From IMG/VR virus record IMGVR_UViG_3300033146_003955, positions 64,001 to 128,000 of that record: DNA of 64,000 nucleotides; one strand, given 5' to 3'. The DNA is from a virus. Both the position numbers and the translations under genes were made by a program. Under the pieces are notes generated by a model. It did not search any database. It saw only the letters and a program-made list of their open reading frames with translations, and had not been told where the DNA came from. Below, piece by piece: positions 8,130 to 28,470 of this stretch. How positions within the stretch are numbered: position 1 is the first letter of the stretch; every line of letters starts with the position of its first letter.

Positions 8130-9020
8130 ATGAATGTACAAAGTCTATCTGTAGTAGTTCCTGGTGGATGTCCTAATAGTTGTTTATATTGTGTTTCTAA
8201 AACACATAAAGAAATTAAATATAAAGATACAATATCACCATGTGTTAGGCGAATACAAAATAAAGCTTCTTTCACAAATTATGATATGGAACAATATATC
8301 AATAGAATGGAGTTTGCTAGAGATAACGGTTGTAATACTGTAATTCTAACTGGTGAAGGTGAACCAGTCTGGAATAAGAAATTTCTCAAAGCTTTCGGAC
8401 AATGGAATAAGGCTCTTGATAAACCTTTCAGATGGATTGAGATTCAAACTTCTGGTATTGGTCTTGATGGTGAGACACTCTCACTTCTTAAAAAAGTTGG
8501 TGTTAACACAATCTCTCTCTCAATCTCATCTTTTAATGATGAAAAGAATAACGAATATAATGGTATCAAACCCGAGAATCAATTTAATATAGCTGAAAGA
8601 TGTAACCAAATTAAGAAGGAAGGTTTTAATCTAAGACTTTCTATTAATGCAACTGATGCATTTAATAGGTGGCTGCCGGTAGAAATATTTAATACAGCTA
8701 GTATTTTAGGAGCTGATCAATTGACATTCCGTGTTCTTTACGATTCTGGAAATCCAGAGCATGAAGTTGATATCTGGATTAATGAGCATAGAGTTAGCAA
8801 CCAGTTACAAAAGAATTTTATTACGTATGTTCAGGAAAATGGTAATAAATTAGAACAGCTTCCTTTTGGCCCTTTTAAATATTCGGTTGATGGCGTATCT
8901 ACTGTTATCGACGACGACTGTATGAGCAAGGAACTTAAAGATACTATTAAGTACTTTATCTTAAGACCTAATGGGAAATTATATACTCGTTGGGATGATA
9001 CGGGGAGTTTGTGGTTTTAA
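8130..9020 (+). CDS. Radical SAM protein
   Basis: CPNSCLYC (CxxxCxxC), ILTGEGEP, IEIQTSG. Confidence 0.9.
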   Translation: MNVQSLSVVVPGGCPNSCLYCVSKTHKEIKYKDTISPCVRRIQNKASFTNYDMEQYINRMEFARDNGCNTVILTGEGEPVWNKKFLKAFGQWNKALDKPFRWIEIQTSGIGLDGETLSLLKKVGVNTISLSISSFNDEKNNEYNGIKPENQFNIAERCNQIKKEGFNLRLSINATDAFNRWLPVEIFNTASILGADQLTFRVLYDSGNPEHEVDIWINEHRVSNQLQKNFITYVQENGNKLEQLPFGPFKYSVDGVSTVIDDDCMSKELKDTIKYFILRPNGKLYTRWDDTGSLWF

Positions 9021-9412
9021 TGGATGATACGGAGGCTAAGCTTCTATTAAGAGGTGCAGAGGAATATAAAATCTTCTATTCTAATGGGCAGCAATATGAA
9101 TCATATTATGTTTTAGATGGTTTAAGGGAAGGTGAATATAGAGAATGGTATATAGATGGCCAAATAAAAAAATGTTGTTTTTATAAAAATGATGTTATAG
9201 ATGGTGAATATAAAGAATGGCATGAGAATGGACAATTGCGAATTCACAACTTTTACAAAAATGGTTGTGAAATAGGAAATATAACTACATGGTATGATAA
9301 TAACCAAATATCTTCGGAATGTAAATTTGATAAAAATGGTGAAGTTATAGACTATAGGATGTGGAATAAAAAAGGTGAACAAATAGAAGATATTTCTAGA
9401 GAAGATGCTTAA
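9020..9412 (+). CDS. MORN-variant repeat protein with N-terminal EAKLLL tag
   Basis: Repeats of GEYxEW(Y/H)xNGQ. Confidence 0.8.
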   Translation: MDDTEAKLLLRGAEEYKIFYSNGQQYESYYVLDGLREGEYREWYIDGQIKKCCFYKNDVIDGEYKEWHENGQLRIHNFYKNGCEIGNITTWYDNNQISSECKFDKNGEVIDYRMWNKKGEQIEDISREDA

Positions 9413-9447
9413 AGCAGGCATACTTAATATTAAACAAAGGAGATTAT

Positions 9448-9750
9448 ATGAGTAATAGTTTACTTCTTAAAGAAATTCAAGAAGATGGAATTAACGTTAT
9501 AGCACTCTTTAAATATAAACGTGATGACAATGTTGGTGGTCATAAGAAAGGTGATGTTAAAGAAGCATATATTTGTACTATGATTGGTAATGAAATTACT
9601 CTTGGTGAGCAATTTATAGATCAGTATGATATTACTGCTGACTGGATGAATCCAATCGAATACACTCCGACTGGGTATGCACAAAATTCGTATATATATA
9701 AAATTACTGAGAAAAGTTCTGGTAATGTTGTTTTTGAACAAAAAAGGTGA
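9448..9750 (+). CDS. Hypothetical protein
   Basis: AAGGAG SD; GCATA at 9418. Confidence 0.7.
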   Translation: MSNSLLLKEIQEDGINVIALFKYKRDDNVGGHKKGDVKEAYICTMIGNEITLGEQFIDQYDITADWMNPIEYTPTGYAQNSYIYKITEKSSGNVVFEQKR

Positions 9751-10421
9751 CAAACTGTATAAGTTGTAATAAAAAATTATCAAGAAAAACAAAATCTGGT
9801 ATGTGTAAAATTTGTTGGGATAAGTACAGACTTGATAGTGCTAAATCTTATGCTTATTGCGAGATATGTAATAAAAGATTTTTTACGACTTATAACATTG
9901 GAAAACTTTGTAGAAAGTGCAAAGAAAAAGAATTAGGTCATACACCAAAACAATTTACTTGTATTGTTTATGGTAAAATAGTTTATCATAAGAATAAATA
10001 TAATATGTGTTATGATTGTTATAAAAAATCTGATATACCTAAAAAAATAGGACGAGAAAATTGGGCTAAAGCTGGTTCTTGGACGTTTAAAAGAAGTAAG
10101 AATGAAATTTATTTTGCTTCTTTGTGCGCAGATAAATATAACATTTCGACAAATGATGTTAGATTTAATGGATGGGATGCTGATATTATTTTAAATGATT
10201 TTAATATTGCCATAGAATGGAATGGCATATGGCATTACGAAAAATTATTTGATTCATACAATCTTAATGAAAAACAAAATAGAGATTTGATTAAAGCTAA
10301 AGAAATTAAAAATGCGGGATATACACTGTATATCATTAAAGATTTAGGACGAGAAAATAAAGAATTTGTTGAAAAAGAATTTAAAAAATTTGAAAAATAT
10401 ATGATTCATATGCATATATAA
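9747..10421 (+). mobile_element. Free-standing homing-endonuclease-like gene (CxxC Zn ribbons + Vsr/PD-(D/E)xK-like domain)
   Basis: Multiple CxxC; SKNE...WDADI...IAIEWNGIWH...RD..K. Confidence 0.7.
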
Positions 10422-10450
10422 ATGTATAAAGATTTGATAGGAGATGTTTG

Positions 10451-11542
10451 ATGTCAACAATTAAAGAGATGAAGAAAAAATTACGTTATGTTTTAAAAGA
10501 AGGAACAATTCAGCCAGTAACTCCCTTTATCTGGGGAAAACCTGGAATTGGGAAATCTCAGTCTGTAAAACAAATTGCTGATGAGATGGGAATTATGTTT
10601 ATTGACCTTAGACTTTCACAGTTGGAGAGCGCTGATCTTAGAGGTATTCCTGTACCTGATATGGAACAAGGTATATCTAAATGGATGCCACCAGAATTTC
10701 TTCCTTTTAAAGGCATTAAAAAATTTGAAGGTACTTCTGGTATAATTCTTCTTGATGAGTTTAATAGAGCACGACCCGATGTTCTTCAGGCAGCATTCCA
10801 GCTTGTGTTAGATAGACAGGTTGGTATTCATGAAATTATGGATTCATGGTTTATTGTAGCTGCTGGTAACCTTGGAGATGAGGATAGAACAGATGTTATC
10901 GAGATGGATTCTGCTCTTAAGAATAGATTTATTCACTTTAGTGTAGATGTTGAGTTGGATTCTTGGTTACGTTGGGCAAACAAAACCAAAATTAATTCTG
11001 ATATTATAACTTTTCTAACTTCAAAACCTGCTTATCTGTATCATACGGCTAAAGAAGAAGATAATATATTTGTTACTCCTCGTTCATGGGAGAAGTTTTC
11101 TGATATTCTTGCTCAGAATCCGGATGTTGATCCTATGGAAATTACTGCTATTCTTGGTCCTGATATTATCAATGGAGCTGCTGGTCACTTCATGAAATTT
11201 CTTGAATCTAAAGAGATTGTTTCTGGTAAAGATGTTATTACTAAATATCATCAGGATGCGGTTAAGAAGAAAATCAAAGCTATGCAGAGGGATCAGATTT
11301 ATGCTCTAGACGGCGATATTGTAGACTATATTCTTAAGAGCAAGAAAACTACAGATATTCATTTAGAGAACCTACACAATTTCGCTAAAGAGAATCTTGA
11401 GAAAGATATCTATATTGCATTCATGAGAAATCTTGCTCAAAAATGCGTTAATGAGGAACATAACTTCATTGATAAGTACCTCAAAAAGTACATCAAGGAA
11501 TCAAAAGAGATTATTCAAATCTTTAAAAATAAATTAAGCTAA
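10451..11542 (+). CDS. MoxR-type AAA+ ATPase (module 2)
   Basis: GKPGIGKS, DLRL, LLDEFNR, AAGN, LKNRF, TPRSW. Confidence 0.9.
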   Translation: MSTIKEMKKKLRYVLKEGTIQPVTPFIWGKPGIGKSQSVKQIADEMGIMFIDLRLSQLESADLRGIPVPDMEQGISKWMPPEFLPFKGIKKFEGTSGIILLDEFNRARPDVLQAAFQLVLDRQVGIHEIMDSWFIVAAGNLGDEDRTDVIEMDSALKNRFIHFSVDVELDSWLRWANKTKINSDIITFLTSKPAYLYHTAKEEDNIFVTPRSWEKFSDILAQNPDVDPMEITAILGPDIINGAAGHFMKFLESKEIVSGKDVITKYHQDAVKKKIKAMQRDQIYALDGDIVDYILKSKKTTDIHLENLHNFAKENLEKDIYIAFMRNLAQKCVNEEHNFIDKYLKKYIKESKEIIQIFKNKLS

Positions 11543-11552
11543 TCACTAGCTT

Positions 11553-11580
11553 GCTCCCTCTTTGAGGGAGTTTTTTTTTT
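11553..11580 (+). terminator. Intrinsic terminator
   Basis: gctccctc-ttt-gagggagt followed by a long T-run. Confidence 0.85.
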
Positions 11581-11624
11581 GAAAATTTCGGTTTCTCATG
11601 CATAGTTAATTGCATAATAAGGAG

Positions 11625-13211
11625 ATGATGATGGCTAAAGAAACAAAAGATGTAAGTACTTCAAAAGTTAGTTTAACTAATGAGCAAAAGGAACAGGCTA
11701 GGTCTGCTCTTGTGTCTGCTGGTGTAGTTGCTCCTCGACTAAAGAAAGTAAGGATTCCAAAAAGATTTGAAGATATATCCCTCCGATGGGTAAAACAAGC
11801 ACCATTTTTCTCAGAATTTATGCTTCGTTTTCACTTCTTCAAAACTAAAGATATCCCAACAGCTGGTGTTAATGTTATGAGAGGAAATCTCAATTTCTAC
11901 TTCAACCCTGAATTTATTGATGGTGGTGGAGAGAGACCTGACATCGGTGATGATGGACATCCTGTAATAATTAAAAATAAAGCTGGAGACCCAGAGCTTG
12001 ATGCTCAAGGTAATGTTCAGGTTAAAATGGTTCCTCGTGAAGCATTAACCAATTCAGAACTTGAAGGCCTTCTTATACATGAGATTTATCACATTATCCG
12101 CCTCCACCACGAAAGAAGTCTTGAGGATCACCAGCTCTTTAACGTAGCTGCTGATATGCTCATTAACGATGATATCTCTACTCTCAAAATAAATAATAGA
12201 GGTATGGATCTTCCTGCTGGTGGTGTCTTTTATAAAATGGCAATTGATGAAGGTTATACCGGTGAGAAAGTGACCGAAGAACTTTACATTTGGTTACAAG
12301 ATGTAAGACAGAAATATGAAGATATGATGCAGAAACTTATTCAGCAACAAATGGGTGGTTCTGGCGGTGAAGGATCAGGTAGTCAAGGTCAACAGGAATG
12401 TTCTGCGTGTGGTGGTGACGGTCAGGAAAAAGATGAGAATGGTAATCCTACTGGTGAAACTTGTGAGAAGTGTGGTGGTTCTGGTAAAGAGTCAGGTCAA
12501 AGTGGTCAAGGTAAGAAAAACTCCCTCTTCGACGTACTCTTCGGCTCAAATATTGATGTTCATGAAATCATGGGTCAGAGTGATGAACTTTCAGATGCAA
12601 CTATTCAGGAAGTATTAGACTCAGCAAAAATACGTGGCTGGGGCTCTATGGCAGGAGATGCTGTCTCAAAAATTCAGGAATTGATGACTCCAGCAAAAAT
12701 TCCTTGGAGACAGGTTTTAAGAAAATCACTTTCTCCTCTTATTTATGATTATGGACCACATTTTGAAAATACATGGTCTCGTAGAAACAGAAGAGGACTT
12801 CCTCTTCCAGGTCTTAGACGTCTTACTAATCGTCTTGTTATTGCAATTGATACTTCTGGTTCTATCGGTGGTAATGAACTTGAACAATTCTTCGCTCAAA
12901 TCGAGAAGATTGTCAAAGACTTTTCGCAGTTGATAGTTATTCAATGGGATACTAAAATCGCAGATGTCTCGCTCGCTTATAGAAAGGGTGATTGGAAGAA
13001 CATTGAAGTTAAAGGTCGTGGTGGAACACATGTACAATGTGTATTCGACTGGATGAGCGATAACGGATATAAAAAATATCCACTCATAAACTTCACAGAT
13101 GGCTACTTTGATTATGGCTTTGATAACCATGGCATTAAAACTATTTGGTGTGTAACTGAAGCAGATTCAACTGTACCCCGTGGCAAAAATATATTTATTG
13201 ATGTAAATTAA
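11625..13211 (+). CDS. DUF2201-type HExxH metallopeptidase + VWA fusion with DnaJ-type Zn finger in the linker
   Basis: HEIYH, NVAAD, CSACGGDG/CEKCGGSG, PWRQVL, IDTSGS, QWDT, GRGGT, FTDG; AAGGAG SD before ATG 11625-11631. Confidence 0.9.
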   Translation: MMMAKETKDVSTSKVSLTNEQKEQARSALVSAGVVAPRLKKVRIPKRFEDISLRWVKQAPFFSEFMLRFHFFKTKDIPTAGVNVMRGNLNFYFNPEFIDGGGERPDIGDDGHPVIIKNKAGDPELDAQGNVQVKMVPREALTNSELEGLLIHEIYHIIRLHHERSLEDHQLFNVAADMLINDDISTLKINNRGMDLPAGGVFYKMAIDEGYTGEKVTEELYIWLQDVRQKYEDMMQKLIQQQMGGSGGEGSGSQGQQECSACGGDGQEKDENGNPTGETCEKCGGSGKESGQSGQGKKNSLFDVLFGSNIDVHEIMGQSDELSDATIQEVLDSAKIRGWGSMAGDAVSKIQELMTPAKIPWRQVLRKSLSPLIYDYGPHFENTWSRRNRRGLPLPGLRRLTNRLVIAIDTSGSIGGNELEQFFAQIEKIVKDFSQLIVIQWDTKIADVSLAYRKGDWKNIEVKGRGGTHVQCVFDWMSDNGYKKYPLINFTDGYFDYGFDNHGIKTIWCVTEADSTVPRGKNIFIDVN

Positions 13212-13220
13212 ACTATATTT

Positions 13221-13255
13221 TCTTCCGTCTATAAAGATAATAAGTAGACGGAGGA
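13221..13255 (+). promoter_or_regulatory. AAGATAA motif in the loop of an RBS-occluding hairpin
   Basis: 11-bp stem tcttccgtcta/tagacggagga covers GGAGG; AAGATAA at 13234-13240. Confidence 0.75.
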
Positions 13256-13262
13256 TATTTTT

Positions 13263-14905: not shown

Positions 14906-15118
14906 ATGGAAGACGGTTACAGAAAAGTTGAACGAGAAAATGGATTTTCAGAAATAACAATCGGTGACAGAATTAGACTTTCAGATGTAGAAAAAGATGG
15001 TATTACCTTACTTGAAGATGTTCCTCAAAAGGGTGATAAAATTTATTTAGTAAATACTCTCCCAGTTAAAAATAAGGATGGAGTTTTAGCCGTAGAATGT
15101 GATACTGTTGAAGAATGA
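14906..15118 (+). CDS. Hypothetical protein
   Basis: AAGGAG SD. Confidence 0.65.
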   Translation: MEDGYRKVERENGFSEITIGDRIRLSDVEKDGITLLEDVPQKGDKIYLVNTLPVKNKDGVLAVECDTVEE

Positions 15119-15357
15119 ACGTTGGAGAAGTTTGGCTTAAAAGAAGACAAAGGCCTGAAAGAGAACGATTTTTTGTTATGAAGAAAAATAACAATTCTGG
15201 TTTTCGAGGACTTATGATGGCTCGTCAATCTTTATATGAAAATGTTTTTTTGAGTAATGATAGTATAAAAGGTTTTGAAGAAAAAAATAAACTTCTAACT
15301 GATGATGAAGTTGCTAAATATATATTATTGGGTGATTTGAATCCAGCAATACTATAG
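15115..15357 (+). CDS. Hypothetical protein with C-terminal EVAKYILLG tag
   Basis: ATGA overlap. Confidence 0.6.
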   Translation: MNVGEVWLKRRQRPERERFFVMKKNNNSGFRGLMMARQSLYENVFLSNDSIKGFEEKNKLLTDDEVAKYILLGDLNPAIL

Positions 15358-15996: not shown

Positions 15997-16260
15997 ATGG
16001 AACCGGATGATTTAATGAAAGTAGGTTTTAAGTGGGATGATAATGATAAAAATCTTGGTGTCTATACAGTAATATCTGATTGGGCAAAACAAATAAAAGG
16101 TGGTGTAAGTAATGTTGCTACTCTTGTACAAAAAGATGGAAAATTGTATTTGAGGACAAAAGATAAAGATGCTGAATTAAATACTAATAATCCTACTAAA
16201 ATTGGCGAGTTAATAGTAGCTGAATATGCTAAGCAGGTATTAGATAACAATGCAACATAA
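15997..16260 (+). CDS. Hypothetical protein
   Basis: Coupled ORF ending EYAKQVL. Confidence 0.6.
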   Translation: MEPDDLMKVGFKWDDNDKNLGVYTVISDWAKQIKGGVSNVATLVQKDGKLYLRTKDKDAELNTNNPTKIGELIVAEYAKQVLDNNAT

Positions 16261-16564
16261 CTTTTGTGACCAAGAAGATTGCCTTCTCCATCCCACCTAT
16301 ATTAAAAAAGAAGAGGAAAGAGCAAAACGGGAAGCTCAAGCAAAAGGACATCTTGTTGCTATAGAAGATGGTTCTCAATGGGCGCCGGCTTCTTATGACC
16401 ATAGTATTTTTTGGGATAGTTCATGTATTAGCGTGCAAGCAGTGAGAATTAAAACCTCAACAGTAGATATCCCTGTCGAATGTACAATATGCTCACATTT
16501 TAAAAAGTTGGACATGAAAGAAATATTAATAATAGAAGAAGCAAAAAAGGCATTGAATGACTGA
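16250..16564 (+). CDS. Cys/His-containing hypothetical protein
   Basis: CxxxxC..H, CTIC; ends EEAKKAL. Confidence 0.6.
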   Translation: MQHNFCDQEDCLLHPTYIKKEEERAKREAQAKGHLVAIEDGSQWAPASYDHSIFWDSSCISVQAVRIKTSTVDIPVECTICSHFKKLDMKEILIIEEAKKALND

Positions 16565-16898
16565 AATAGATGAAGCTAAATTTCTTCTCACCCACACTAA
16601 ATGTATAAAATACTACGATAACGGTAATATACAATCTACACATTATATGTTTGATAATTTAATAGATGGTGAAGAGAAGATATGGCGAGAAGACGGTAAA
16701 CTCTTAATCCAATCTAATTGGGTTAAAGGAAAGAAAGAAGGTAAATTTGAACAGTGGCATGCTAACGGCATGTTGAGCGAAATATGTTATTTTAAAAATA
16801 ATAAGAAGAATGGTGAAAGCAAAAAATGGTATTATAACGGATTGTTAAAAAAACATACACTATATAGACATGGAGAAGTGCTTGAAACCTACAAATGA
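16557..16898 (+). CDS. MORN-variant repeat protein with EAKFLL tag
   Basis: YYDNG, WHANG, WYYNG repeats. Confidence 0.8.
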   Translation: MTEIDEAKFLLTHTKCIKYYDNGNIQSTHYMFDNLIDGEEKIWREDGKLLIQSNWVKGKKEGKFEQWHANGMLSEICYFKNNKKNGESKKWYYNGLLKKHTLYRHGEVLETYK

Positions 16899-17313
16899 AG
16901 AAGCTAAATTTTTATTATTACATGATTTACAAAAGCAATATTACACTAACGGTAGAATAAAAGCAAAGTATTATATGTTAGATGATAAAATGGACGGAGA
17001 ATACAAAAGTTGGCATCAAAATGGTAATATGAGTATTTGCTGTTTTTATAAAAAAGGTGTTTTACATGGTGATTATACAGATTGGTATCAAAACGGTCAA
17101 TTATGGGAGAAACGCTTCTATATAGATAACAAATTAAATGGTCAAATAAAAGTCTTCTACGAAGACGGCCAGCAGCAATATACAGTTTATTATAAAGACG
17201 ATTTGCGTGAGGGTGAATATAAAGAATGGGATGAAGAAGGGTTACTCATTACACATTATATATATGAAAACAATGAAGTTGTAAAAGATTATCCTCTTAA
17301 AAAGCATATTTAG
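16870..17313 (+). CDS. MORN-variant repeat protein with EAKFLL tag
   Basis: WHQNG, WYQNGQ, GEYKEW repeats. Confidence 0.8.
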   Translation: MEKCLKPTNEEAKFLLLHDLQKQYYTNGRIKAKYYMLDDKMDGEYKSWHQNGNMSICCFYKKGVLHGDYTDWYQNGQLWEKRFYIDNKLNGQIKVFYEDGQQQYTVYYKDDLREGEYKEWDEEGLLITHYIYENNEVVKDYPLKKHI

Positions 17314-17339: not shown

Positions 17340-17843
17340 ATGATAAAAGATCAGTATGAGAAAAATTATAAGAAGTATATAAATAATACACAATTTGATG
17401 ATTTTATGAGTTCAACAACAACGGAGTTAACAGCAACAACGGAGTTAACAGCAACAACGGAGTTAACAGCAACAACGGAGTTAACAGCAACAACAAGTGG
17501 TGGAATATGGAGTATTAATCCTTTGACTACAGGCGATGGTTGGTACTCAGATGGGACAGCTACAAGTCTACCTATAATAGGTGATAATACTTATAGCGGC
17601 GGTATGATAAATATACCGCTCTTAGCCGGAAATACTACTTATGAATATCCTGCACATCGTACTCCAGGGACTGAAGAATGGCCAATAGTACCTGATGCCC
17701 TAGGTGTTGTATATATCGAGGGTAATGAAATTAAAATAAGAATGGCAGATGGGAAAACAATTGTTATAGGCCGTTTAGATGATGGAGAAGATTTCGTACC
17801 TATTGAAGTTGTTGCAGCTAAGAAAAAATTAATAGATGAGTAA
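17340..17843 (+). CDS. Hypothetical protein with TTELTA repeat
   Basis: GCATA at 17304; ends AAKKKLI. Confidence 0.7.
   Translation: MIKDQYEKNYKKYINNTQFDDFMSSTTTELTATTELTATTELTATTELTATTSGGIWSINPLTTGDGWYSDGTATSLPIIGDNTYSGGMINIPLLAGNTTYEYPAHRTPGTEEWPIVPDALGVVYIEGNEIKIRMADGKTIVIGRLDDGEDFVPIEVVAAKKKLIDE
17416..17494 (+). repeat. Perfect 18-nt tandem repeat x4
   Basis: caacaacggagttaacag. Confidence 0.95.
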
Positions 17844-19116
17844 AAAATTAACTACTGAAGAATTCATACAAAAAGCTAAACAAGTACATGGTGATAAGTA
17901 TGATTATTCTTTAGTTGATTATAAAGGCGCCAAGATTAAAGTTAAAATAATATGTCCTAAACATGGTATATTTGAACAAATACCCGATAACCATGTAGTA
18001 GGTAGAGGATGTAATAAATGCGGTAATATTAATAGTTCTAATAAGCAGTCTTTAACTATTAAAAAATTTATACAAAAAGCTAAGCAAGTGCATGGCAATA
18101 AATATGATTATTCTTTAGTTGATTATAAAAATATGAATATTAAAGTTAAAATAATATGTCCAGAACATGGAATTTTTAAACAATTACCTAGTGCACACAT
18201 AGCCAGTCAAGGATGCTTTAGATGTAATGGCGGGGTTAAATATACGACTAAAGAATTTACACAAAAAGCTAAACAAGTACATGGTGATAAATATGATTAT
18301 TCTTTAGTTGATTATAAAAATATGAATATTAAAGTTAAAATAATATGTCCAGAACATGGAATTTTTAAACAATTACCTAGTGCACATATAGCTGGACGAC
18401 AATGCTCTAAGTGTTCAAATAGACTTAGGTATACAACAGAAGAATTTACACAAAAAGCTAAACAAGTACATGGTGATAAATATGATTATTCTTTAGTTGA
18501 TTATAAAAATAATAAAATTAAAGTTAAAATAATATGTCCTGAACATGGAATTTTTAAACAAAAGCCTATAGATCACATACTTGGCGGAAATTGTTCAAAA
18601 TGTTCGCAAGTATATCAATATACGACTGAAGAATTTATAGATAAAGCTAAAGAAGTACATGATGATAAATATAATTACTCTTTAACAAATTATATAAATA
18701 ATAAAACAAAAGTTGATATAATATGTCCAGAGCATGGTGTGTTTAAACAAAAACCAGCAAATCATTTATATGGGCAAGGCTGCCCTATATGTAATGAAAG
18801 CAAAGGCGAAAAAGCTGTAGCTAAGTATTTAGATGATAATAATATAAAATATATAAGAGAATATAGATTTAATGATTGTAAAGACAAACGTGTTCTTCCA
18901 TTTGACTTTTATATTAAAAATAAAAATGTGTTAATAGAATTTGATGGAGGTCAACATAAAAAAGCTATAGAATATTTTGGGGGTAAAGAAGGACTCGAGA
19001 ATATAAAACGACGAGATATAATCAAAACACAATATGCTAAAAGGCATAATATAAAATTAATAAGAATAAATAATATAAATGAAATTTTAGATAAATTGAA
19101 GCATATTTTAATATAA
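17836..19116 (+). mobile_element. Homing endonuclease-like gene (5 DUF723/CapR-like Zn repeats + Vsr-like nuclease)
   Basis: TEEFIQKAKQVHGDKYDYS..IICPEHG.F.Q repeats; SKGE, LPFDFY, IEFDGGQH. Confidence 0.85.
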
Positions 19117-19133: not shown

Positions 19134-19397
19134 ATGGCAGAAGAAGCAGTTTATATTAATCAGATGAGTGACGCAGACATAAAAATTATCCAAACAACTT
19201 ACAATGCGATAAGAACACTCGATGAAGAGAAAAAAAGTATTGGAGAGGACATTAAAGAAGAGAAGGCCAAATGTATTAAAGATACAGGCATCAAGCCTAA
19301 AGATCTCAATAACATCTTCAAACTTTTAAAACTTCAGGAAGATGGATTTGATCCTAAGAAGTATGATAATGTTATTGACAAGATTCATGATATGTAA
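19134..19397 (+). CDS. GapR/T4 DsbA-like small dsDNA-binding protein
   Basis: IRTLDEEKKSIGEDIKE...GIKPKDLNNIFKL pattern; AGGAG SD; GCATA at 19101. Confidence 0.65.
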   Translation: MAEEAVYINQMSDADIKIIQTTYNAIRTLDEEKKSIGEDIKEEKAKCIKDTGIKPKDLNNIFKLLKLQEDGFDPKKYDNVIDKIHDM

Positions 19398-21020: not shown

Positions 21021-21034
21021 GCATATTTTATTTT

Positions 21035-21493
21035 ATGGATTATGTAACAGAATCAATTTATGCCAACATTTATATAACTCACAATAGAGATAAAACTCAT
21101 ATTTATCAAAAAATACGTATAGTACCACAAAAACCAATTTTCCTCAAATATTTCATGTATGAAAAGTATAAAATAGGCAGAATCGTTCATGACCTCTTCC
21201 AGGAATTATATCTTGGGGATGGTGATAATATCATGTATGAAAGTACTATGACTTTCAAGAATACCAAAACAATAACTTATCGAATAGATAATGAAATAGA
21301 TCTAGACCTTGACGATCAAGAATATCACGTTGAAGGAGAGAGACCTAAATTTGATGCTTGTTCTGCTTGTACCTATCTTGTGATATCTAAAAGCGGTGCT
21401 GATAAATGTAGATTTCATAAAAAATTCCTTAAAAGACATAAAAAGAGTTGCACAGACTTCCTTGAGAAGGGAAATGATAATGGGGCAGTCTGA
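21035..21493 (+). CDS. Hypothetical protein with C-terminal Cys cluster
   Basis: GCATA-N9-ATG; CSAC..C..C. Confidence 0.65.
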   Translation: MDYVTESIYANIYITHNRDKTHIYQKIRIVPQKPIFLKYFMYEKYKIGRIVHDLFQELYLGDGDNIMYESTMTFKNTKTITYRIDNEIDLDLDDQEYHVEGERPKFDACSACTYLVISKSGADKCRFHKKFLKRHKKSCTDFLEKGNDNGAV

Positions 21494-21764
21494 TATTGCT
21501 AAAAGTTTATTAATTGGACAAACTTGCGATAGTTGTACTCATAAAACCACTTTTTTTGGCATTGGTGGCCCAAATAATAATCCTGTAACAGGATGTATAC
21601 TTAAAAAAACCGAAACGTTCCCCAAAGAAAAAACATGTAGTAAATGGTCTTTAAAAATAGAAGGGCCACAGTATGGCGTTTTTTCACCAACATACACTAC
21701 TGAAACAAAACTTACATTATTGGAGAAAATATGGAAGAAGTTGAAACAGCTAAAAATCTTTTAG
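21480..21764 (+). CDS. AK-x-LL-G-xx-CxxC family small Zn-binding protein
   Basis: MGQSDIAKSLLIGQTCDSC...C...CSKW. Confidence 0.65.
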   Translation: MGQSDIAKSLLIGQTCDSCTHKTTFFGIGGPNNNPVTGCILKKTETFPKEKTCSKWSLKIEGPQYGVFSPTYTTETKLTLLEKIWKKLKQLKIF

Positions 21765-21916
21765 AGGGAAAAAGTTGCGATAATTGTAAAAGACAAAAAA
21801 GTGAAGATATATGCGTTAGATGGCTGGGTGAAGCTTATGGATGGCAATGGTGGAGTAAAGCGGAGGAAGGTATATGTGATGACTGGATTGATAAACAACG
21901 AGAAAACACGCTGTAG
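21731..21916 (+). CDS. AK-x-LL-G-xx-CxxC family small protein
   Basis: TAKNLLEGKSCDNC...C...CDDW. Confidence 0.7.
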   Translation: MEEVETAKNLLEGKSCDNCKRQKSEDICVRWLGEAYGWQWWSKAEEGICDDWIDKQRENTL

Positions 21917-21997: not shown

Positions 21998-22207
21998 ATG
22001 AGCTGGATGAAACCAACACCTGTAGCAAAGATAAACAGTATGACTAGACCTGAGATGGCTAAAAATCTCCTTGAAGGAAAAACTTGCGACACCTGTGGCT
22101 TAGAAAGAGATGAAGATGATTGCTGTGTGTGGTTGGGTGAAGATAAAGGTTGGGCTTGGGTACATAACAAAGGTTATGGTACATGTGCCTATTGGGAAGA
22201 ATTATGA
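21998..22207 (+). CDS. AK-x-LL-G-xx-CxxC family small protein, paralog of 21731
   Basis: MAKNLLEGKTCDTC..WLGE..GW.W..CAYW. Confidence 0.7.
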   Translation: MSWMKPTPVAKINSMTRPEMAKNLLEGKTCDTCGLERDEDDCCVWLGEDKGWAWVHNKGYGTCAYWEEL

Positions 22208-23676: not shown

Positions 23677-23681
23677 ATATA

Positions 23682-23725
23682 CCTCTTTTACACTTTCATA
23701 CTTATCTTACAAGTGTAAAAAGAAT
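23682..23725 (-). promoter_or_regulatory. AAGATAA motif in the loop of an RBS-occluding hairpin
   Basis: Minus strand ttctttttacactt-gtAAGATAAgtatga-aagtgtaaaagagg; stem covers GAGG. Confidence 0.7.
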
Positions 23726-23733
23726 TATATCAT

Positions 23734-23963
23734 TTATGGGAAAATAATTTTTAAATATCTGTGTTTAATATTGTATGGTAATTGGTTGGCTGTTAATAGT
23801 TTAGATTCCACAAAATCGTGTGAGCCTACATTTAATCCCTTCCCACTATATCTTTTTATATTTTCACTGTCACCATAGATATGGTAGATAGCAGATGCGT
23901 AATAATAAGTATAATCTTTTTGGCTCACCACTATTTTTATAGTGGTGGGATTAATTTTTCCAT
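23734..23963 (-). pseudogene. Small protein of the C-terminal tag family, apparently frameshifted
   Basis: Coupled ATG at 23963 (MEKLIPPL*) is out of frame with VVSQKDY...YLKIIFP; the break lies in a perfect hairpin 23926-23947. Confidence 0.45.
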
Positions 23964-23964
23964 A

Positions 23965-24468
23965 TTATTCTAACGATTCTAATTCTTCAAAATTTAATTC
24001 ATCATCTGTTATTTCAATAATATTTTCATCTAAGGTTATATCATCATCTAAGGTTATATCATCATCTAAGGTTATATCATCATCTAAGGTTATATCATCA
24101 TCTAAGGTTATATCATCATCTAAGGTTATATCATCATCATCCAACATGTTTAGTAACTCCTCATCAGTTTCATCTAATAAATTATCTTCAAGACCAAGAT
24201 CTAAATCATCGTCAATATTTAAAGTACCTGATACCTCGTCAAAATCAGCTTTTTCTATCTCTGGCATCTCAATTTCTTCGACTATAATATTATCAATTAT
24301 CTCTCTTTCTTCTTCGGCCTTTCCAAAGATGGATATTTCTTGTACAATACCATCCTTTTTTATAACCTTCCCTTGCATTTTAGATGAAAATAAATCATCA
24401 GCATAAGCCGCTTCAAATTCAGTCTCAAACTTTATTGTTAAATTCCCATCGTCTAATATAAATCTCAT
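23965..24468 (-). CDS. Very acidic protein with DDDITL repeats
   Basis: AGGAG SD; D/E-rich C-half. Confidence 0.75.
   Translation of the reverse strand: MRFILDDGNLTIKFETEFEAAYADDLFSSKMQGKVIKKDGIVQEISIFGKAEEEREIIDNIIVEEIEMPEIEKADFDEVSGTLNIDDDLDLGLEDNLLDETDEELLNMLDDDDITLDDDITLDDDITLDDDITLDDDITLDDDITLDENIIEITDDELNFEELESLE
24026..24133 (-). repeat. Perfect 18-nt tandem repeat x6
   Basis: tcatctaaggttatatca. Confidence 0.95.
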
Positions 24469-24480
24469 ATTTTTTCTCCT

Positions 24481-25035
24481 TTATAGTTCCCAACTTTTCT
24501 CAATTTTATCTTCATAATCTTTACAGTTACCTTGTAAATAATCTTCAACAAAACAACAAAGCGCGTGACTGTCAACTACGTTATCGTCGAATACTGTTTG
24601 TTTCTTAATTCTTTTAAAGAATGGTATATTAGCACCTCTCTTATTTGCTTCTTCTATCATAGCCAATTTGTCTGCATTACCACTACCTGTATAATATTTT
24701 TTTAAAGTCTTAGGCGGAATGATGATAAATTTAATATCTTTAGTGAAGTATAAGGCCCGGAGCATATGGGACAAGCCTCCAAGTTCAAATAAAGTATTTC
24801 CGCGACTCGCATATGACATACCCTCCATACAAATATAGTCTGGCTTATATTTCTTTATAATCTCAGTTATATCTTCAACTATTTTTATTAATCGTTTCGT
24901 ATAATCAATAGTTGGGGTTTTTGTATTTTTAGTTTTAGACGATGATATTAAATAATAATATTCTTCACCTTCAGAAAAAACTGTTATGCCACTACCAACA
25001 AGACTTTGATCAATACCCATATATATATTACTCAT
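24481..25035 (-). CDS. ruvC: RuvC-like Holliday junction resolvase
   Basis: MGIDQSL..SG, ICMEG, LKKYYTGSGNADK, DNVVDS. Confidence 0.85.
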   Translation of the reverse strand: MSNIYMGIDQSLVGSGITVFSEGEEYYYLISSSKTKNTKTPTIDYTKRLIKIVEDITEIIKKYKPDYICMEGMSYASRGNTLFELGGLSHMLRALYFTKDIKFIIIPPKTLKKYYTGSGNADKLAMIEEANKRGANIPFFKRIKKQTVFDDNVVDSHALCCFVEDYLQGNCKDYEDKIEKSWEL

Positions 25036-25942
25036 CTTTTATCCTTATAAATTTATATTCAGGTAAATACTTTTCTATTTGATGTTATCTTACTATATCT
25101 TTTTCACAAAGATTTCCACTTATATCAAAATGTTTTTTCTCATCATATTCCATAATCAATTTCATATCATGGTTTATATAATCTACCCAATAACCTAATT
25201 CTTTTATATGATACTCACCACCGTTTCTAGCATGTTGACCATTCGTATTATTATCTTTATCGAATTGTTCGAAATGGTTACAAGCTTTGGGATTCCAATT
25301 TGGTACTAATTGTTGTCCTAGTGTCAATCTTTCCTCAACTGTTTTTATAGCTTTTAACCTTCTATTTTTAATTTCTTCAGCAGATTGAATTCTAACTTTT
25401 CCTTTTTTTGCTTTGCTCATTTTCATTCTTGTTTCTTTAGAAAATGGTTTTCTTTTTGTTCCTTTCATTGCATCCATAGCGCACTTATGACAACAATATT
25501 TACTATCATTACGTTTTTTGTATGATATTTCATATTCATTTTTGCAATAATTACATATCAATTTAACATCAGGACTAGGCTTTTTATTTGATTTACATTT
25601 TATACGCATTTCCTGCGCTTTATCTCCATACAACTCTTCAAATGTTTTACCTTTACTCCAAGGAATATTACCAATATGACTTTTACTCCTCACCTTTCTT
25701 GATTCCGCCGACATTTCTAAATCTTTTTGCCATTCATTAAAACAATTTTTACTACAATATTTACGGTCTCTTTTTTTGTATTCTACACTAAAAATTATTC
25801 CACAATAATTACATTTTATTTTTACAGGGCTATGAGCTTTAGCTTTATTTCTGTGTGTTGTTGCACAAGACTTACTACAAAATTTTTGATTTTTATAATA
25901 TGTTTTAAACTCTTTATTACATTCTAAACAAACTTTTATCAT
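25028..25942 (-). pseudogene. Zn-finger/NUMOD3/Vsr-like homing endonuclease with a premature TAA at 25085-25087
   Basis: CxxC..KFCS repeats, SKETRMKMS, GYWVDY..EYDEKKH; frame continues after the stop as HQIEKYLPEYKFIRIKDE. Confidence 0.7.
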
Positions 25943-26009
25943 ATAATTATCTTGTATATATTTTTAAAATTGTCATGTTTCTACTTCTAAAGTAAGTGCT
26001 TCCCAATCA

Positions 26010-26246
26010 CTAATACGGATGGAAGCTTATTACTTCTATAAACCTTGTAAATATAAATTTTATTCCATCTGCAGGAAGATAAGTAGTTTCGTAAGATAGA
26101 ATTTTCTCATCTCCAACTTTATTATTGTCCCCGTGTATAATATGAGTTATTATTCCTTCTATTTCAACACGGCCAAACCTCTCTATTTTCTTATCATCTG
26201 TTTCGATAATATAAGCTTCACCTAAGAACATTACAAACTTTTCCAT
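26010..26246 (-). CDS. Small protein, C-terminal tag family (GIKFIF)
   Basis: TAATG coupling. Confidence 0.6.
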   Translation of the reverse strand: MEKFVMFLGEAYIIETDDKKIERFGRVEIEGIITHIIHGDNNKVGDEKILSYETTYLPADGIKFIFTRFIEVISFHPY

Positions 26247-26428
26247 TATTCAAATACCAACCTTATTATTTTTCTGAAAGCTTCAGGCTTATCAACTTCA
26301 ATCTTTGCTTTTAAATTTTTCAGCAGAGTAATATACGCAAAAAATTTATATTCTATATTATCTTTGTAAAGTGTTGATATTATGATCATTTTATAAAGAT
26401 AATATAGAATATAAATTTTCAAAATCAC
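26246..26428 (-). CDS. Small protein, C-terminal tag family (KIIRLVFE)
   Basis: Start uncertain; shared C-terminal motif. Confidence 0.45.
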   Translation of the reverse strand: MILKIYILYYLYKMIIISTLYKDNIEYKFFAYITLLKNLKAKIEVDKPEAFRKIIRLVFE

Positions 26429-26445
26429 TATATTAGGAGAATTAA

Positions 26446-26727
26446 ATGCCTAAAATTGATTTACAATCTCAAATAGTTTTAACTGTAGTTGGCCTACTTG
26501 TAACAGCTGCTCTTGTATTTGTTGGTATATCATTCTTGGGAATGCAAGATGATCTTCAACAACTAACTGTCGACGTAACAACTTTGCAGTCTTTACAAAA
26601 AACGTCAGCGATAGCCAATTCTAATGCTTTTAAAAATGCAAATGAGGATTTGATTGCTGTAAAAACTGATTTGAAATTAGATATACGAGAGTTGAAAAAT
26701 GATATAAAATATTTATGGAGGAGATAA
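26446..26727 (+). CDS. Single-TM coiled-coil protein (possible lysis component)
   Basis: TAAAGATAA at 26394, AGGAG SD, N-terminal TM. Confidence 0.6.
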   Translation: MPKIDLQSQIVLTVVGLLVTAALVFVGISFLGMQDDLQQLTVDVTTLQSLQKTSAIANSNAFKNANEDLIAVKTDLKLDIRELKNDIKYLWRR

Positions 26728-27248
26728 TGAGAATACTATTTATTATATTGTTAATCATACTGCCTATTTTTGTATTTTCTCAGCAAATTGTAGAAGAAGA
26801 TTTAATAGATGAGTTAAATTTTTGGAATTCAAATTTAAATTTTGAGTATAAAAACAATACTCTTTATATATATGATTATTATTCAAGTGATTACAGCGAT
26901 GTATCTCTTGGTTTATCAGATATCTTAGAAGGTATAACATATTATTTGAAAGATATTCAAATAGATTTAAAAAATTTAGATTTAAATGTTGAATATACAT
27001 GGGGAAGCCGTAATTATAGTAATGATGACTTCATTATGGAAAAATTGCATATAGATCCAGAATGGTTGATCGCCTACACTTTAACCGAAAGTAGAAAAGA
27101 TAAACAAGCAATGTTTGATGAGGTATTAAATCCAATATATAGAAGCATAAAAGATGACTTTCAGATATATCAGTCTCAACAAGTAAAACAAGCCATTTTT
27201 AATTTAAAAGAAGTTCAAATTTTACCTAAAGATGATTTTGAACGATAA
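26727..27248 (+). CDS. Secreted/periplasmic protein
   Basis: MRILFIILLIILPIFVFS signal peptide; GGAGGAG SD. Confidence 0.65.
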   Translation: MRILFIILLIILPIFVFSQQIVEEDLIDELNFWNSNLNFEYKNNTLYIYDYYSSDYSDVSLGLSDILEGITYYLKDIQIDLKNLDLNVEYTWGSRNYSNDDFIMEKLHIDPEWLIAYTLTESRKDKQAMFDEVLNPIYRSIKDDFQIYQSQQVKQAIFNLKEVQILPKDDFER

Positions 27249-27323
27249 CACAGAAATTAAGTATAATAAATTTAATTTTTTCTCTATCTTTAATATTTTC
27301 ATCTTTAGAGCATAATTTAATAT

Positions 27324-28025
27324 ATGAGAAAGAATAAATACTCGAAATCAAAGATAGACACGTTCAAGAAATGTAAACTTCAATATAAAAAAAAGTATAT
27401 TGAGAAAATTAAATTGCCTCAGCCTCATTCTGATGACCTTCAATTCGGCTCCTGGATTCATAAATGTTTAGAAATTTACAACCCAGATGCAGACAACAAG
27501 ATTGAAGTTATTAAACTTTTTAAACATTTCGATATTAGAGGGAAAGCTTATATTAATGCCATCCCTCAAACTCTTAGAAATGCTATAGCATATACTAAGA
27601 AAAATTGGAAATACCCTAGAGAGAATGAGCAAACTATAACTTATGAAGGGAATGAGATTACAATCACTGGTATTGTAGACTTAAAAATGGAGCAGAAAAA
27701 TGGTTTAGTTGTTGTCGATTATAAATCATCAAAAACTGCTAATCCATGGCGTCATGAATATCAAATGAAGATGTATACATACATGTTTATGAAAATTGAA
27801 AGTCTCCCAGCTGAAAAAATACATTCAGTTATATACTATCCTCGAATTGATGATTACAATCATTATAATTTTACTACAATAGATATGAAATTATTTGAAC
27901 AAGAACTCATGCAAGATATTGTGGATATAGAAACTACAAAAGTTTATCCTGCTTCACCTGGTTACCATTGTAGATGGTGTCCTTACCTTGATACTGAACA
28001 TTGTTCTAAAGGTCAAAAGCCTTAA
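27324..28025 (+). CDS. Cas4/AddB-like PD-(D/E)xK exonuclease with Fe-S cysteines
   Basis: S.S.I..F..C, GSWIH, GIVD, VDYKS, QMKMY, CRWCPY...C; GCATA-N9-ATG. Confidence 0.85.
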   Translation: MRKNKYSKSKIDTFKKCKLQYKKKYIEKIKLPQPHSDDLQFGSWIHKCLEIYNPDADNKIEVIKLFKHFDIRGKAYINAIPQTLRNAIAYTKKNWKYPRENEQTITYEGNEITITGIVDLKMEQKNGLVVVDYKSSKTANPWRHEYQMKMYTYMFMKIESLPAEKIHSVIYYPRIDDYNHYNFTTIDMKLFEQELMQDIVDIETTKVYPASPGYHCRWCPYLDTEHCSKGQKP

Positions 28026-28026
28026 A

Positions 28027-28206
28027 ATGGATTTAGCTTTAGCTGCTAAACATTTGTTACTTGGTAGAAATTGTTTTAATTGTAATTATTATAAAACTAA
28101 AAAAAGTAAATGTTCACATGATTTAGATATTTGTATTTTTGCTAACGGGCAAGGTGACAAATTACCTAGCGCAAATATTTGTAAATATTGGAGTAGATAT
28201 GAATGA
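28027..28206 (+). CDS. AK-x-LL-G-xx-CxxC family small protein
   Basis: AAKHLLLGRNCFNC...CKYW. Confidence 0.65.
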   Translation: MDLALAAKHLLLGRNCFNCNYYKTKKSKCSHDLDICIFANGQGDKLPSANICKYWSRYE

Positions 28207-28470
28207 AGACAAATTAGCAAAAAAATTATTGGAGAACAATATTCCTCCCCAATATATTCCTTATTATGAGATAATAGGTGATAGAAAATTAACATTACCA
28301 GTGAAAGGTGCAGTCATCATATTAGCAGAAAATAATGGATTTGATGTACGATTTATAAAAATTGATACAGTAATAACGGATGATTTTCATCCTTATAGAT
28401 TAAATATACATATAGATTAAATATACATATAGATGAAAATCATAATTTAAAAAATATAACTATAGGATAG
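28199..28470 (+). pseudogene. I78/potato-type serine protease inhibitor-like protein truncated by a 17-nt duplication
   Basis: VRFI...VITDDFHPYRLNIHID*; removing one repeat restores ENHNLKNITIG*. Confidence 0.6.

What the first reader, a model, noticed from the sequence alone, without database searches (positions are those of the whole stretch)
9020..28470. Shared AK-x-LL terminal tag on many unrelated small proteins
Seen near the N-terminus: TEAKLLL (9020), DEAKFLL (16557), EEAKFLL (16870), DIAKSLL (21480), ETAKNLL (21731), EMAKNLL (21998), AAKHLLL (28027), KLAKKLL (28199). Similar at the C-terminus: LAKIYL (6618), EVAKYIL (15115), EYAKQVL (15997), EEAKKAL (16250), AAKKKLI (17340). The cargo differs (MORN repeats, CxxC modules, inhibitor-like domain). 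All are plus-strand, mostly downstream of GCATA motifs. Inference: a portable docking helix recruiting interchangeable adaptors to one hub, for which the neighbouring AAA/VWA module 2 is a candidate.
Basis: partly seen in the sequence, partly recalled or inferred. Interest (0 to 1): 0.8.

Follow-up and report, generated by a model that had tools for sequence, protein, structure and literature searches.

The report
Portable AKxLL end-tag on phage miniproteins
A short helix motif (Ala-Lys-x-Leu-Leu) sits at the very start or end of about one in ten small proteins in a clade of giant uncultured phages. It is far more frequent than chance allows and occurs on unrelated folds, so it is most likely a shared docking handle, but its receptor is still unknown.

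Summary
The 159-kb phage contig has 20 exact AKxLL sites against 1.1 expected, and 18 are at a protein end. All eight N-terminal and five C-terminal examples check out. An unbiased scan ranks AK.LL as the top terminal motif. All Leu and Ala codons are used, so selection acts on the peptide.

Three relatives repeat the pattern: 29 sites against 1.15 expected (114 kb), 61 against 2.65 (250 kb) and 44 against 3.3 (388 kb). Three control phage contigs have none.

Paralogy explains part of it.
- MORN proteins.
- A new Zn-ribbon miniprotein family with at least 546 clusters, an almost invariant N-terminus and a hypervariable rest. It is absent from Pfam, PHROGs, cultured phages and prokaryote genomes.

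Paralogy does not explain the rest. 109 tagged proteins fall into 70 unrelated clusters. MORN cargo carries the tag at either end. Orthologues keep it at about 30% identity. One Zn-ribbon gene and one MORN gene share an identical 33-nt 5' module that ends at the LL codons.

Best reading: a portable docking handle on fast-evolving accessory proteins. The receptor is unidentified, and the MoxR/VWA idea is untested. The scan reported this tag before on neighbouring DNA of this genome (e1-5743049).

The parts
9020..9412 (+). MORN-repeat protein with N-terminal AKxLL (tag codons 9035-9049)
   Evidence: Pfam MORN_2 E=4e-11. Tag listed. Paralogue of the 16557 and 16870 proteins.
16557..16898 (+). MORN-repeat protein with N-terminal AKxLL, Ala at residue 7 (tag 16575-16589)
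   Evidence: Pfam MORN_2 E=4e-12. AlphaFold2 model has pLDDT 86, with helix 3-12 running straight into the first strand.
16870..17313 (+). MORN-repeat protein with N-terminal AKxLL (tag 16903-16917)
   Evidence: Pfam MORN_2 E=6e-13. 47% identical to a tagged MORN protein of G010.
21480..21764 (+). Zn-ribbon miniprotein; AKxLL at residues 7-11, directly before CxxC (tag 21498-21512)
   Evidence: Member of the family in alignments A1 and A3.
21731..21916 (+). Zn-ribbon miniprotein with the canonical N-terminus (tag 21749-21763)
   Evidence: No Pfam or PHROGs family.
22040..22207 (+). Zn-ribbon miniprotein. The ORF opens at 21998, but the Met at 22040 gives the usual Ala-7 register (tag 22058-22072).
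28027..28206 (+). Zn-ribbon miniprotein with N-terminal AKxLL (tag 28045-28059)
28199..28420 (+). 73-aa singleton with N-terminal AKxLL and no CxxC (tag 28217-28231)
   Evidence: Only sub-threshold inhibitor I78 / potato-inhibitor hints. No PHROG.
6224..6634 (+). 136-aa protein with the N-terminal variant AKFNL at residue 6
   Evidence: PSSM scan.
6618..7349 (+). 243-aa protein with C-terminal AKxxL (7323-7337), 8 residues from the end
15115..15357 (+). 80-aa protein with C-terminal AKYIL (15313-15327)
15997..16260 (+). 87-aa protein with C-terminal AKxxL (16228-16242)
16250..16564 (+). 104-aa Cys-rich protein with C-terminal AKxxL (16541-16555)
   Evidence: The orthologues in G004 and G010 keep the AKxxL end at 31-40% identity.
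17340..17843 (+). 167-aa protein with C-terminal AKxxL (17817-17831)
   Evidence: The orthologues in G004 and G010 keep it; the G010 one reads as a full AKxLL.
10451..13211 (+). MoxR AAA+ gene (10451-11542) and VWA-metallopeptidase gene (11625-13211).
   Evidence: Pfam DUF2201_N plus DUF2201. MoxR is 65% identical in G004, also present in G010 and absent from the tag-free phage G005.

Best explanation
AKxLL, and its looser form AKxxL, is a short self-contained amphipathic helix. Acidic or capping residues come before it, and Gly, Asp, Asn or Pro closes it. It is placed at the extreme N- or C-end of fast-evolving accessory proteins in a clade of T4-related jumbo phages. I read it as a portable docking handle: many different cargo bodies present the same peptide to one shared partner.

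The main carriers have a 'constant handle plus variable body' layout. They are Zn-ribbon miniproteins and MORN-repeat proteins, expanded in tandem arrays beside anti-defence genes. This layout is what adaptor families look like. The handle spreads between genes by recombination at or next to its own codons.

Shown: enrichment, terminal placement, peptide-level selection, portability, retention in orthologues, restriction to the clade, and module exchange.

Inferred: that a single receptor reads the handle. Its identity is open. The candidates are a phage MoxR/VWA-metallopeptidase machine, the prohead, or a host chaperone or unfoldase.
For: - Enrichment is 13- to 25-fold in four genomes with 30-41% GC. 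Counts are 20, 29, 61 and 44 against 1.1-3.3 expected.
- Three control phage contigs analysed with the same gene caller have 0 sites.
- AK.LL is the top terminal motif in all four genomes and in neither of the two controls scanned (G002, G005).
- All six Leu codons and all four Ala codons are used in the tag.
- Ala is residue 7 in 48 of 75 N-terminal tags. C-terminal tags have 0-10 residues after LL, most often 2.
- 109 carriers fall into 70 BLAST clusters once the tag is masked.
- MORN cargo is tagged at the N-end in G000 and G010, and at the C-end in a G004 MORN-HNH fusion.
- Orthologue triads keep the C-terminal tag at about 30% identity.
- In G010, a Zn-ribbon gene and a MORN gene share their first 33 nt exactly, then diverge right after the LL codons.
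- The Zn-ribbon family has 546 cluster representatives. A, K and the second L are 147/148, the first L 140/148, and the middle of the protein is hypervariable.
- Gly, Asp or Asn follows at position +6 in 136 of 148 family members.
- Carriers sit next to Tad6-, Apyc1-, DHH- and Csx15-like genes.
Against: - No receptor was found, and no binding test could be run.
- In the two big families the helix may simply be part of the fold. The MORN model places it with pLDDT of about 80, directly joined to strand 1. A second MORN subfamily has a different helix at the same position.
- About 20 sites in G004 lie outside my terminal windows; many are 14-60 residues from an end.
- E, A, K and L are generic helix formers.
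- The only gene families shared by all four tag-rich genomes are the tagged families themselves and a homing endonuclease. A phage-encoded receptor is therefore not evident, although G001 is only 49% complete.
Confidence: 0.55

Rival explanations
1. There is no shared receptor. The helix is a cis structural element of two expanded families (Zn-ribbon minis and one MORN subfamily). Its presence elsewhere comes from paralogy plus hitch-hiking of a 5' (or 3') gene-end module during recombination in tandem arrays.
For:
- 33 of 109 carriers are Zn-ribbon minis.
- An identical 33-nt 5' module is shared by two families.
- The strict Ala-7 register fits inheritance of the module as a unit.
- The MORN helix is modelled confidently next to strand 1.
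Against: - There are 65 singleton carriers, and 24 of them are tagged only at the C-end, which 5' hitch-hiking cannot produce.
- The tag is retained in orthologues at about 30% identity while the rest of the protein drifts.
- A, K, L, L are invariant despite free codon choice, in genomes from 30 to 41% GC.
- One helix is unlikely to pack in the same way on a beta-sheet array, a Zn ribbon and other folds.
Confidence: 0.25
2. The tag is a virion-loading signal. It would work like the T4 capsid targeting sequence or an encapsulin cargo-loading peptide, putting an arsenal of small (anti-defence) proteins into the head for co-injection.
For: - In T-even phages, diverse internal defence proteins share only a conserved targeting leader (PMC3012670).
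- G001 and G010 encode a T4-type prohead protease, Peptidase_S77.
- Carriers lie beside anti-defence genes.
- Encapsulin loading peptides can sit at either end of the cargo (my own knowledge).
Against: - A different leader, more like the T4 targeting sequence, begins the prohead protease itself in G001 and G010. Another report says the same leader begins the MoxR set-1 genes of this genome (e1-5743073).
- Only about 37% of Zn-ribbon tags have Glu at the position a T4-type L/I-x-E cut would need.
- 20-60 cargo species per genome is a lot to package.
- The tag-like sites on the G010 terminase and protease are not conserved in their homologues.
Confidence: 0.15
3. The tag is a recognition signal for an ATP-driven machine. 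One option is the phage MoxR / VWA-metallopeptidase pair. The other is a host unfoldase or chaperone (ClpX-type end signals, or DnaK). The outcome would be processing, timed turnover or remodelling of the carriers or of the targets they hold.
For: - End location and a register tied to the terminus suit end-reading machines.
- MoxR and the VWA-peptidase are present in G000, G004 and G010 and are the best-conserved genes of the shared block. MoxR is absent from the complete tag-free phage G005.
- DnaJ genes occur in G001 and G010.
- AKxLLxG can be aligned without gaps to the classic DnaK model peptide NRLLLTG, and it resembles the 'TAK + hydrophobic' N-end signals of ClpX substrates (my own knowledge; this is a lead, not a test).
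Against: - MoxR was not found in G001, which is 49% complete.
- The co-occurrence is confounded by relatedness.
- DnaK binding is degenerate and disfavours acidic flanks, whereas this motif is strict and has acidic flanks.
- MoxR ATPases are not known to read end tags.
Confidence: 0.2
4. The conserved element is at nucleotide level. It would be a signal for translation start or coupling, or a recombination site, and the peptide would be incidental.
For: - Tags sit at gene ends in tightly coupled arrays with overlapping stop and start codons.
- The recombination junction lies at the tag.
Against: - All Leu and Ala codons are used.
- The motif holds in genomes from 30 to 41% GC.
- Upstream DNA is not conserved.
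Confidence: 0.03

Closest known systems
T4 capsid targeting sequence (CTS) of internal proteins IPI-III and Alt
   Same: A short N-terminal leader is the only thing shared by diverse, fast-evolving accessory or anti-defence proteins in variable loci of T4-type phages (PMC3012670).
   Different: AKxLL also occurs at C-ends and sometimes internally. It marks 20-60 proteins per genome and has no consistent protease site. A separate CTS-like leader exists in the same phages. Packaging has not been shown.
Encapsulin cargo-loading peptides
   Same: A short terminal peptide, at either end of the cargo, addresses unrelated cargo to one HK97-fold shell (my own knowledge).
   Different: The consensus is different, there is no dedicated shell gene, and the number of cargos is far larger.
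Terminal adaptor handles such as the poxvirus ankyrin PRANC/F-box-like motif, and PhixxPhiPhi / LxxLL helix-in-groove motifs
   Same: A constant short helix at a protein end sits on large, diversifying families of repeat or binding proteins. It links variable bodies to one hub (my own knowledge).
   Different: This is a bacterial-virus setting, no hub is known, and there is no sequence relationship.
Lineage-specific Zn-ribbon expansion of Bacillus phage G (~35 copies; Iyer et al. 2021, PMC7824862)
   Same: It is a jumbo-phage expansion of tiny Zn-ribbon proteins of unknown role.
   Different: The family found here has no detectable similarity to cultured phages (tblastn found no match). No shared end-tag has been described for phage G.

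Membership tests
T4-type capsid targeting sequence | About 10 aa at the extreme N-terminus, shared by otherwise unrelated proteins | tested here: inconclusive
   N-terminal tags fit this: Ala is residue 7 in 48 of 75. But 42 tags are C-terminal.
T4-type capsid targeting sequence | The leader ends in a prohead-protease site (L/I-x-E) | tested here: not met
   Glu follows LL in only 55 of 148 Zn-ribbon tags and is not general in other carriers.
T4-type capsid targeting sequence | Carriers are packaged in the head | not testable with these tools
   The phages are uncultured, so there is no virion proteome.
T4-type capsid targeting sequence | A T4-type prohead protease is present | tested here: inconclusive
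   Peptidase_S77 was found in G001 and G010, but not in the G000 or G004 contigs, which are 80% and 88% complete.
Pfam MORN_2 (PF07661) | Score above the gathering cut-off | tested here: met
   42-48 bits against a cut-off of 29.6 for the three window proteins.
Zn ribbon (four-Cys, two knuckles) | CxxC, plus two further conserved Cys, in a small beta-rich domain | tested here: inconclusive
   C16, C19 and C49 are invariant and C28 is at least 90% conserved. The AlphaFold2 model has pLDDT of only 59. There is no Pfam, PHROG or PDB sequence match.
Bacterial sliding-clamp binding motif QL[SD]LF | A leading Gln and a hydrophobic second residue | tested here: not met
   The tag has invariant Ala-Lys at those two positions. 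The exonuclease C-end that resembled the tag is not conserved in G004.
Hsp70/DnaK model substrate pattern (NRLLLTG-like) | A Leu-rich core with basic flanks and no acidic residues | tested here: inconclusive
   The pattern basic-x-L-L-x-G matches. However, the upstream flank is acidic and Glu often follows LL. Binding cannot be tested here.
   13 bits against cut-offs of 23.6 and 24.5.

The most novel reading that the evidence does not exclude
A clade of jumbo phages runs an undescribed protein-addressing system. One receptor reads the AKxLL end-helix on more than 100 accessory proteins. These include a hypervariable Zn-ribbon miniprotein family with over 500 clusters, which would act as interchangeable adaptors. 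The system would deliver the carriers, or the host defence proteins they hold, to a single machine such as the MoxR/VWA-metallopeptidase or the prohead.
Probability: 0.3. Interest if true: 0.85.

Novelty: new variant of a known kind. Interest (0 to 1): 0.7.

Why it matters
Shared address tags on otherwise unrelated phage proteins are rare. The T4 capsid targeting sequence, the best-known example, became both a key to phage biology and a protein-delivery tool.

Here a five-residue handle marks about 10% of all small proteins (200 aa or fewer) in several giant phages, including neighbours of known anti-defence genes. It also defines a large, unannotated miniprotein family.

Finding the receptor would:
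- assign a common logic to well over a hundred orphan genes (154 exact sites in the four genomes);
- show how these phages organise or deliver their accessory arsenal;
- give a ready-made tag for steering proteins in such phages.

The motif is also a cheap sequence marker for finding accessory or anti-defence islands in uncultured jumbo phages.

Tried and rejected
- Clamp-binding motif. The FEN-type exonuclease (window 31019-31945) ends in a tag-like LKNLL, but its G004 orthologue does not. The motif also lacks the defining Gln. I found no phage clamp or polymerase gene in the contig.
- Terminase clue. The G010 large terminase starts with a perfect Ala-7 tag. Across 120 homologues, however, the helix grades into Y-V-K-x-L-V forms, so this is probably drift of an old helix.
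- Prohead protease clue. The G010 site is not conserved in the 59%-identical G001 protease.
- CheY-like hub. The receiver-domain gene at window 5844-6227 is a cREC (cyclic-phosphate processing) type, not a chemotaxis-type peptide binder.
- Weak profile hits to the cytochrome c N-helix/CxxCH and to the RAF C1 finger are not significant (E = 0.05-1).
- Phylogenetic profiling for a phage-encoded receptor. Only the tagged families and a homing endonuclease are shared by all four genomes.
- Promoter-class timing. GCATAnTT and AAGATAA motifs are intermixed, and tagged genes follow both.
- AlphaFold2 of the Zn-ribbon family gave pLDDT 59, too poor for a fold search. The fold search of the MORN model returned only generic single-layer beta-sheet folds.
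- Word-indexed homologue searches of two small carriers returned only the query's own cluster.
- The IMG/VR alignment scans and the metagenome scan gave one long contig and three short ones.
- I could not settle whether canonical Tad6 proteins carry the motif. The one cultured-phage hit covers only the core after the tag.


Full report
SETTING. The window is bases 64,001-128,000 of a single 158,812-bp, 31% GC virus contig, estimated 80% complete. It encodes the following:
- MoxR AAA+ plus VWA-metallopeptidase pairs.
- A STAS protein, a radical-SAM enzyme, a cREC receiver and thymidylate kinase.
- RNR, an ATP-dependent ligase, a PD-(D/E)XK exonuclease and a FEN-type exonuclease.
- Topoisomerase IB and many orphan small genes.

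It has no nucleotide match in cultured phages. I made my own gene call: a greedy caller scored on codon usage, giving 207 genes and 92% coverage. I used the same caller on every other genome.

- All eight N-terminal and five C-terminal sites exist.
- Genome-wide, exact AKxLL occurs 20 times against 1.1 expected. The maximum over 2000 within-protein shuffles was 7, and Poisson p = 1e-18.
- 18 of the 20 lie within about 20 residues of the N-end or 12 of the C-end, against 0.17 expected.
- The other 35 orderings of A, K, L, L and one wildcard give 0-8 hits. Composition alone, with E/A/K/L being helix formers, therefore does not explain it.
- In an unbiased scan of all gapped 3- and 4-residue words at protein ends, AK.LL ranks first.
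- The looser AKxxL is at the ends of 29 proteins against 2.2 expected.
- A PSSM adds terminal variants such as AKYIL, TKMLL and AKFNL.

PEPTIDE OR DNA? Peptide.
- Aligned on the Ala codon, the flanking DNA is not conserved, and Leu is encoded by CTC, CTT, CTA, TTA and TTG.
- Over four genomes, all six Leu codons and all four Ala codons occur in the tag.

RELATIVES AND CONTROLS. A profile of the window's CxxC miniproteins led to three further uncultured phage contigs.

| Genome | Size | GC | Completeness | AKxLL observed | Expected |
|---|---|---|---|---|---|
| G001 | 114 kb | 41% | 49% | 29 | 1.15 |
| G004 | 250 kb | 40% | 88% | 61 | 2.65 |
| G010 | 388 kb | 30% | 98% | 44 | 3.3 |

- G004 and G010 share a long syntenic block with window 1-41,700.
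- G001 shares only 14-18 proteins with G000 but 85 with G010.
- AK.LL is again the top terminal word in each of the three.
- Three other phage contigs (63 kb, 37 kb and a complete 162 kb) have zero hits with the same pipeline. The two of them that I scanned have no comparable terminal word.

ANATOMY.
- N-terminal tags have a strict register: Ala is residue 7 in 48 of 75.
- C-terminal tags are followed by 0-10 residues, most often 2.
- Acidic or capping residues precede the core. The residue at -1 is Ile, Val or Leu in the Zn-ribbon family and often Glu elsewhere.
- Gly, Asp, Asn or Pro usually follows at position +6.
- AlphaFold2 puts residues 3-11 or 3-12 in a helix in both models made: the Zn-ribbon family at pLDDT 59 and MORN at pLDDT 86.
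- Carriers are small, with a median of 88 aa. They make up 10.6% of all proteins of 200 aa or fewer in the four genomes. Their pI does not differ from that of other small proteins.
- In G004 about 20 sites fall outside my terminal windows.

HOW MUCH IS PARALOGY? A good part, but not all.
- In the window, three carriers are MORN_2 proteins (Pfam E = 1e-11 to 1e-13; mutual BLAST hits).
- Four carriers belong to one Cys-rich family in which the tag directly precedes CxxC.
- A profile of that family finds 546 representatives of 50%-identity clusters at E of 1e-3 or better among 1.84 billion proteins. Nearly all matches start at residue 1.
- In 148 aligned N-termini, Ala, Lys and the second Leu are 147/148 and the first Leu is 140/148. 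The two Cys of CxxC define the alignment pattern, so their 148/148 count says nothing.
- The N-terminal consensus is IAKNLLEGKTCDNC. The middle is hypervariable, and a second conserved patch (P-x-E-x-T-C-x-x-W) lies near the end.
- The family is not in Pfam or PHROGs, not in 50,697 cultured phage records, and not in 185,579 prokaryote genomes.
- It is expanded in tandem arrays, with 37, 18 and 17 profile matches in G001, G004 and G010.
- MORN proteins come in two subfamilies, each with its own N-terminal helix at the same alignment position: AKxLL, or a QIKxLF type.

WHAT PARALOGY DOES NOT EXPLAIN.
- With the tag masked, the 109 carriers of G000, G001 and G004 form 70 BLAST clusters, 65 of them singletons: 15 N-terminal, 24 C-terminal, 25 internal and one tagged at both ends.
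- MORN cargo has the tag at the N-end in G000 and G010, but at the C-end in a G004 MORN-HNH fusion.
- One 163-aa G000 protein has it at both ends.
- Orthologue triads of two conserved small proteins (window 16250 and 17340 and their G004 and G010 counterparts) keep the C-terminal AKxxL while overall identity is about 30-40%.
- A family starting MK-x-R-x-GFVSNSS keeps an internal copy in G000 and G004 and has a C-terminal AKxxL in G001.
- In G010, a Zn-ribbon gene and a MORN gene four genes away share their first 33 nucleotides exactly (Met to the second Leu) and then diverge completely. This is direct evidence that the leader-plus-tag moves between families, with the junction at the tag.

CONTEXT.
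- Carriers fill the variable islands between conserved genes of the syntenic block. For example, the stretch after thymidylate kinase holds different tagged orphans in G000 and G004.
- Tad6-like proteins in G004 and G010 both contain the motif.
- An Apyc1-like metallo-beta-lactamase-fold protein in G004 contains it.
- Zn-ribbon arrays abut DHH phosphoesterase genes in G000, G001 and G010.
- Another report describes a Csx15-like gene in the window (e1-5743085, which I did not test).
- The carriers therefore look like part of the accessory or anti-defence arsenal.

WHO READS THE TAG? This is not resolved.
- Gene-content intersection of the four tag-rich genomes leaves only the tagged families and a homing endonuclease. 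G001 is half-complete, and head proteins may be too divergent for BLAST.
- MoxR and the VWA-metallopeptidase are in G000, G004 and G010. MoxR is 65% identical in G004 and 50-56% in G010, which makes it the best-conserved gene of the block in G004. It is missing from the complete tag-free G005. This correlation is confounded by relatedness.
- G001 and G010 encode a T4-type prohead protease whose own N-terminus carries a different, more CTS-like leader. That makes AKxLL a less likely head-loading signal.
- G001 and G010 encode DnaJ. AKxLLxG aligns without gaps to the classic DnaK model peptide, but the strictness of the motif and its acidic flanks argue against a generic chaperone site.
- Clamp, terminase, protease and CheY-like leads were followed and dropped (see 'tried and rejected').

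CONCLUSION.
- The motif is a genuine, strongly selected, portable end-helix restricted to a clade of T4-related jumbo phages. I could not find it described.
- I commit to the docking-handle model at 0.55. In that model, constant handle plus variable body makes the Zn-ribbon and MORN expansions look like adaptor families.
- The main rival is a cis-structural helix spread by paralogy and module hitch-hiking (0.25).
- The receptor could be the MoxR/VWA machine or a host unfoldase or chaperone (about 0.2 together), or the prohead (0.15). This remains to be found.
- The same tag was already reported by this scan from the neighbouring window of the same genome (e1-5743049). My tests agree with that report. 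They add the family census, the controls, the register, the orthologue retention and the 33-nt module exchange.

Noticed in passing
window 5525-5541, 21021-21037, 27310-27326, and genome-wide: GCATAnTT lies exactly 14 nt upstream of ATG starts that lack a Shine-Dalgarno sequence, at 11 of 21 motif-proximal genes, often just after a terminator hairpin. This looks like promoters for leaderless mRNAs. A second motif, AAGATAA, precedes other units.
   Followed up: partly
window 11625-13211: The VWA-metallopeptidase (DUF2201_N + DUF2201) carries an inserted DnaJ-type CxxCxGxG zinc-finger pair. The G004 orthologue of this protein gives a BLAST hit to the phage DnaJ proteins of G001 and G010.
   Followed up: partly
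window 5844-6227: A stand-alone cREC (cyclic-phosphate processing receiver) domain protein, conserved in G004 and G010 at 44-50% identity.
   Followed up: partly
L068-L087 (G010), e.g. L070:1-5000 and L072:12000-13500: G010 carries about 35 MORN-repeat genes in tandem arrays. Most belong to a second subfamily whose N-terminus has its own conserved helix (QIKxLF, then NPQ). This matches the 'I-x-x-I-F' tag that another reader noted at the left end of G000.
   Followed up: partly
L011:4817-5725 (G001) and L070:12327-13214 (G010): The T4-type prohead proteases (Peptidase_S77) begin with a conserved leader of the form F-N-x-L-x-Y-x-x-x-E-L-N-E-D. It resembles the leader on the window's first MoxR/VWA gene set and may be the true head-targeting sequence of this clade.
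   Followed up: partly
L033:10764-11522 and L034:14643-15578 (G004); L087:3984-4628 (G010): Homologues of known anti-defence proteins: Tad6 (Thoeris inhibitor; E = 1e-39 and 1e-28) and Apyc1 (anti-Pycsar; E = 1e-17). Each contains an AKxLL site.
   Followed up: partly
L004:8496-8924 (G000) and L010:14479-14907 (G001): A 142-aa protein, 51% identical between these very distant phages. It has a KEKFG-x-LRFY core, a C-terminal Cys cluster and a conserved internal AKxxL segment. No Pfam family matches it.
   Followed up: no
window 17836-19116 and 29180-30259: Large endonuclease-like genes built from 4-5 repeats of a KYDYSLV / ICPxHG module. Copies are scattered over the genome and in G001, G004 and G010, so they are probably homing endonucleases.
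   Followed up: no
window 19134-19397: An 87-aa protein with a weak GapR-like DNA-binding match (E = 9e-4), conserved in G004 and G010.
   Followed up: no
homologues of the G010 terminase (P0156, P0159, P0174, P0176 and others): Many large-terminase homologues of this clade are about 970-1000 aa long and carry intein plus LAGLIDADG domains.
   Followed up: no
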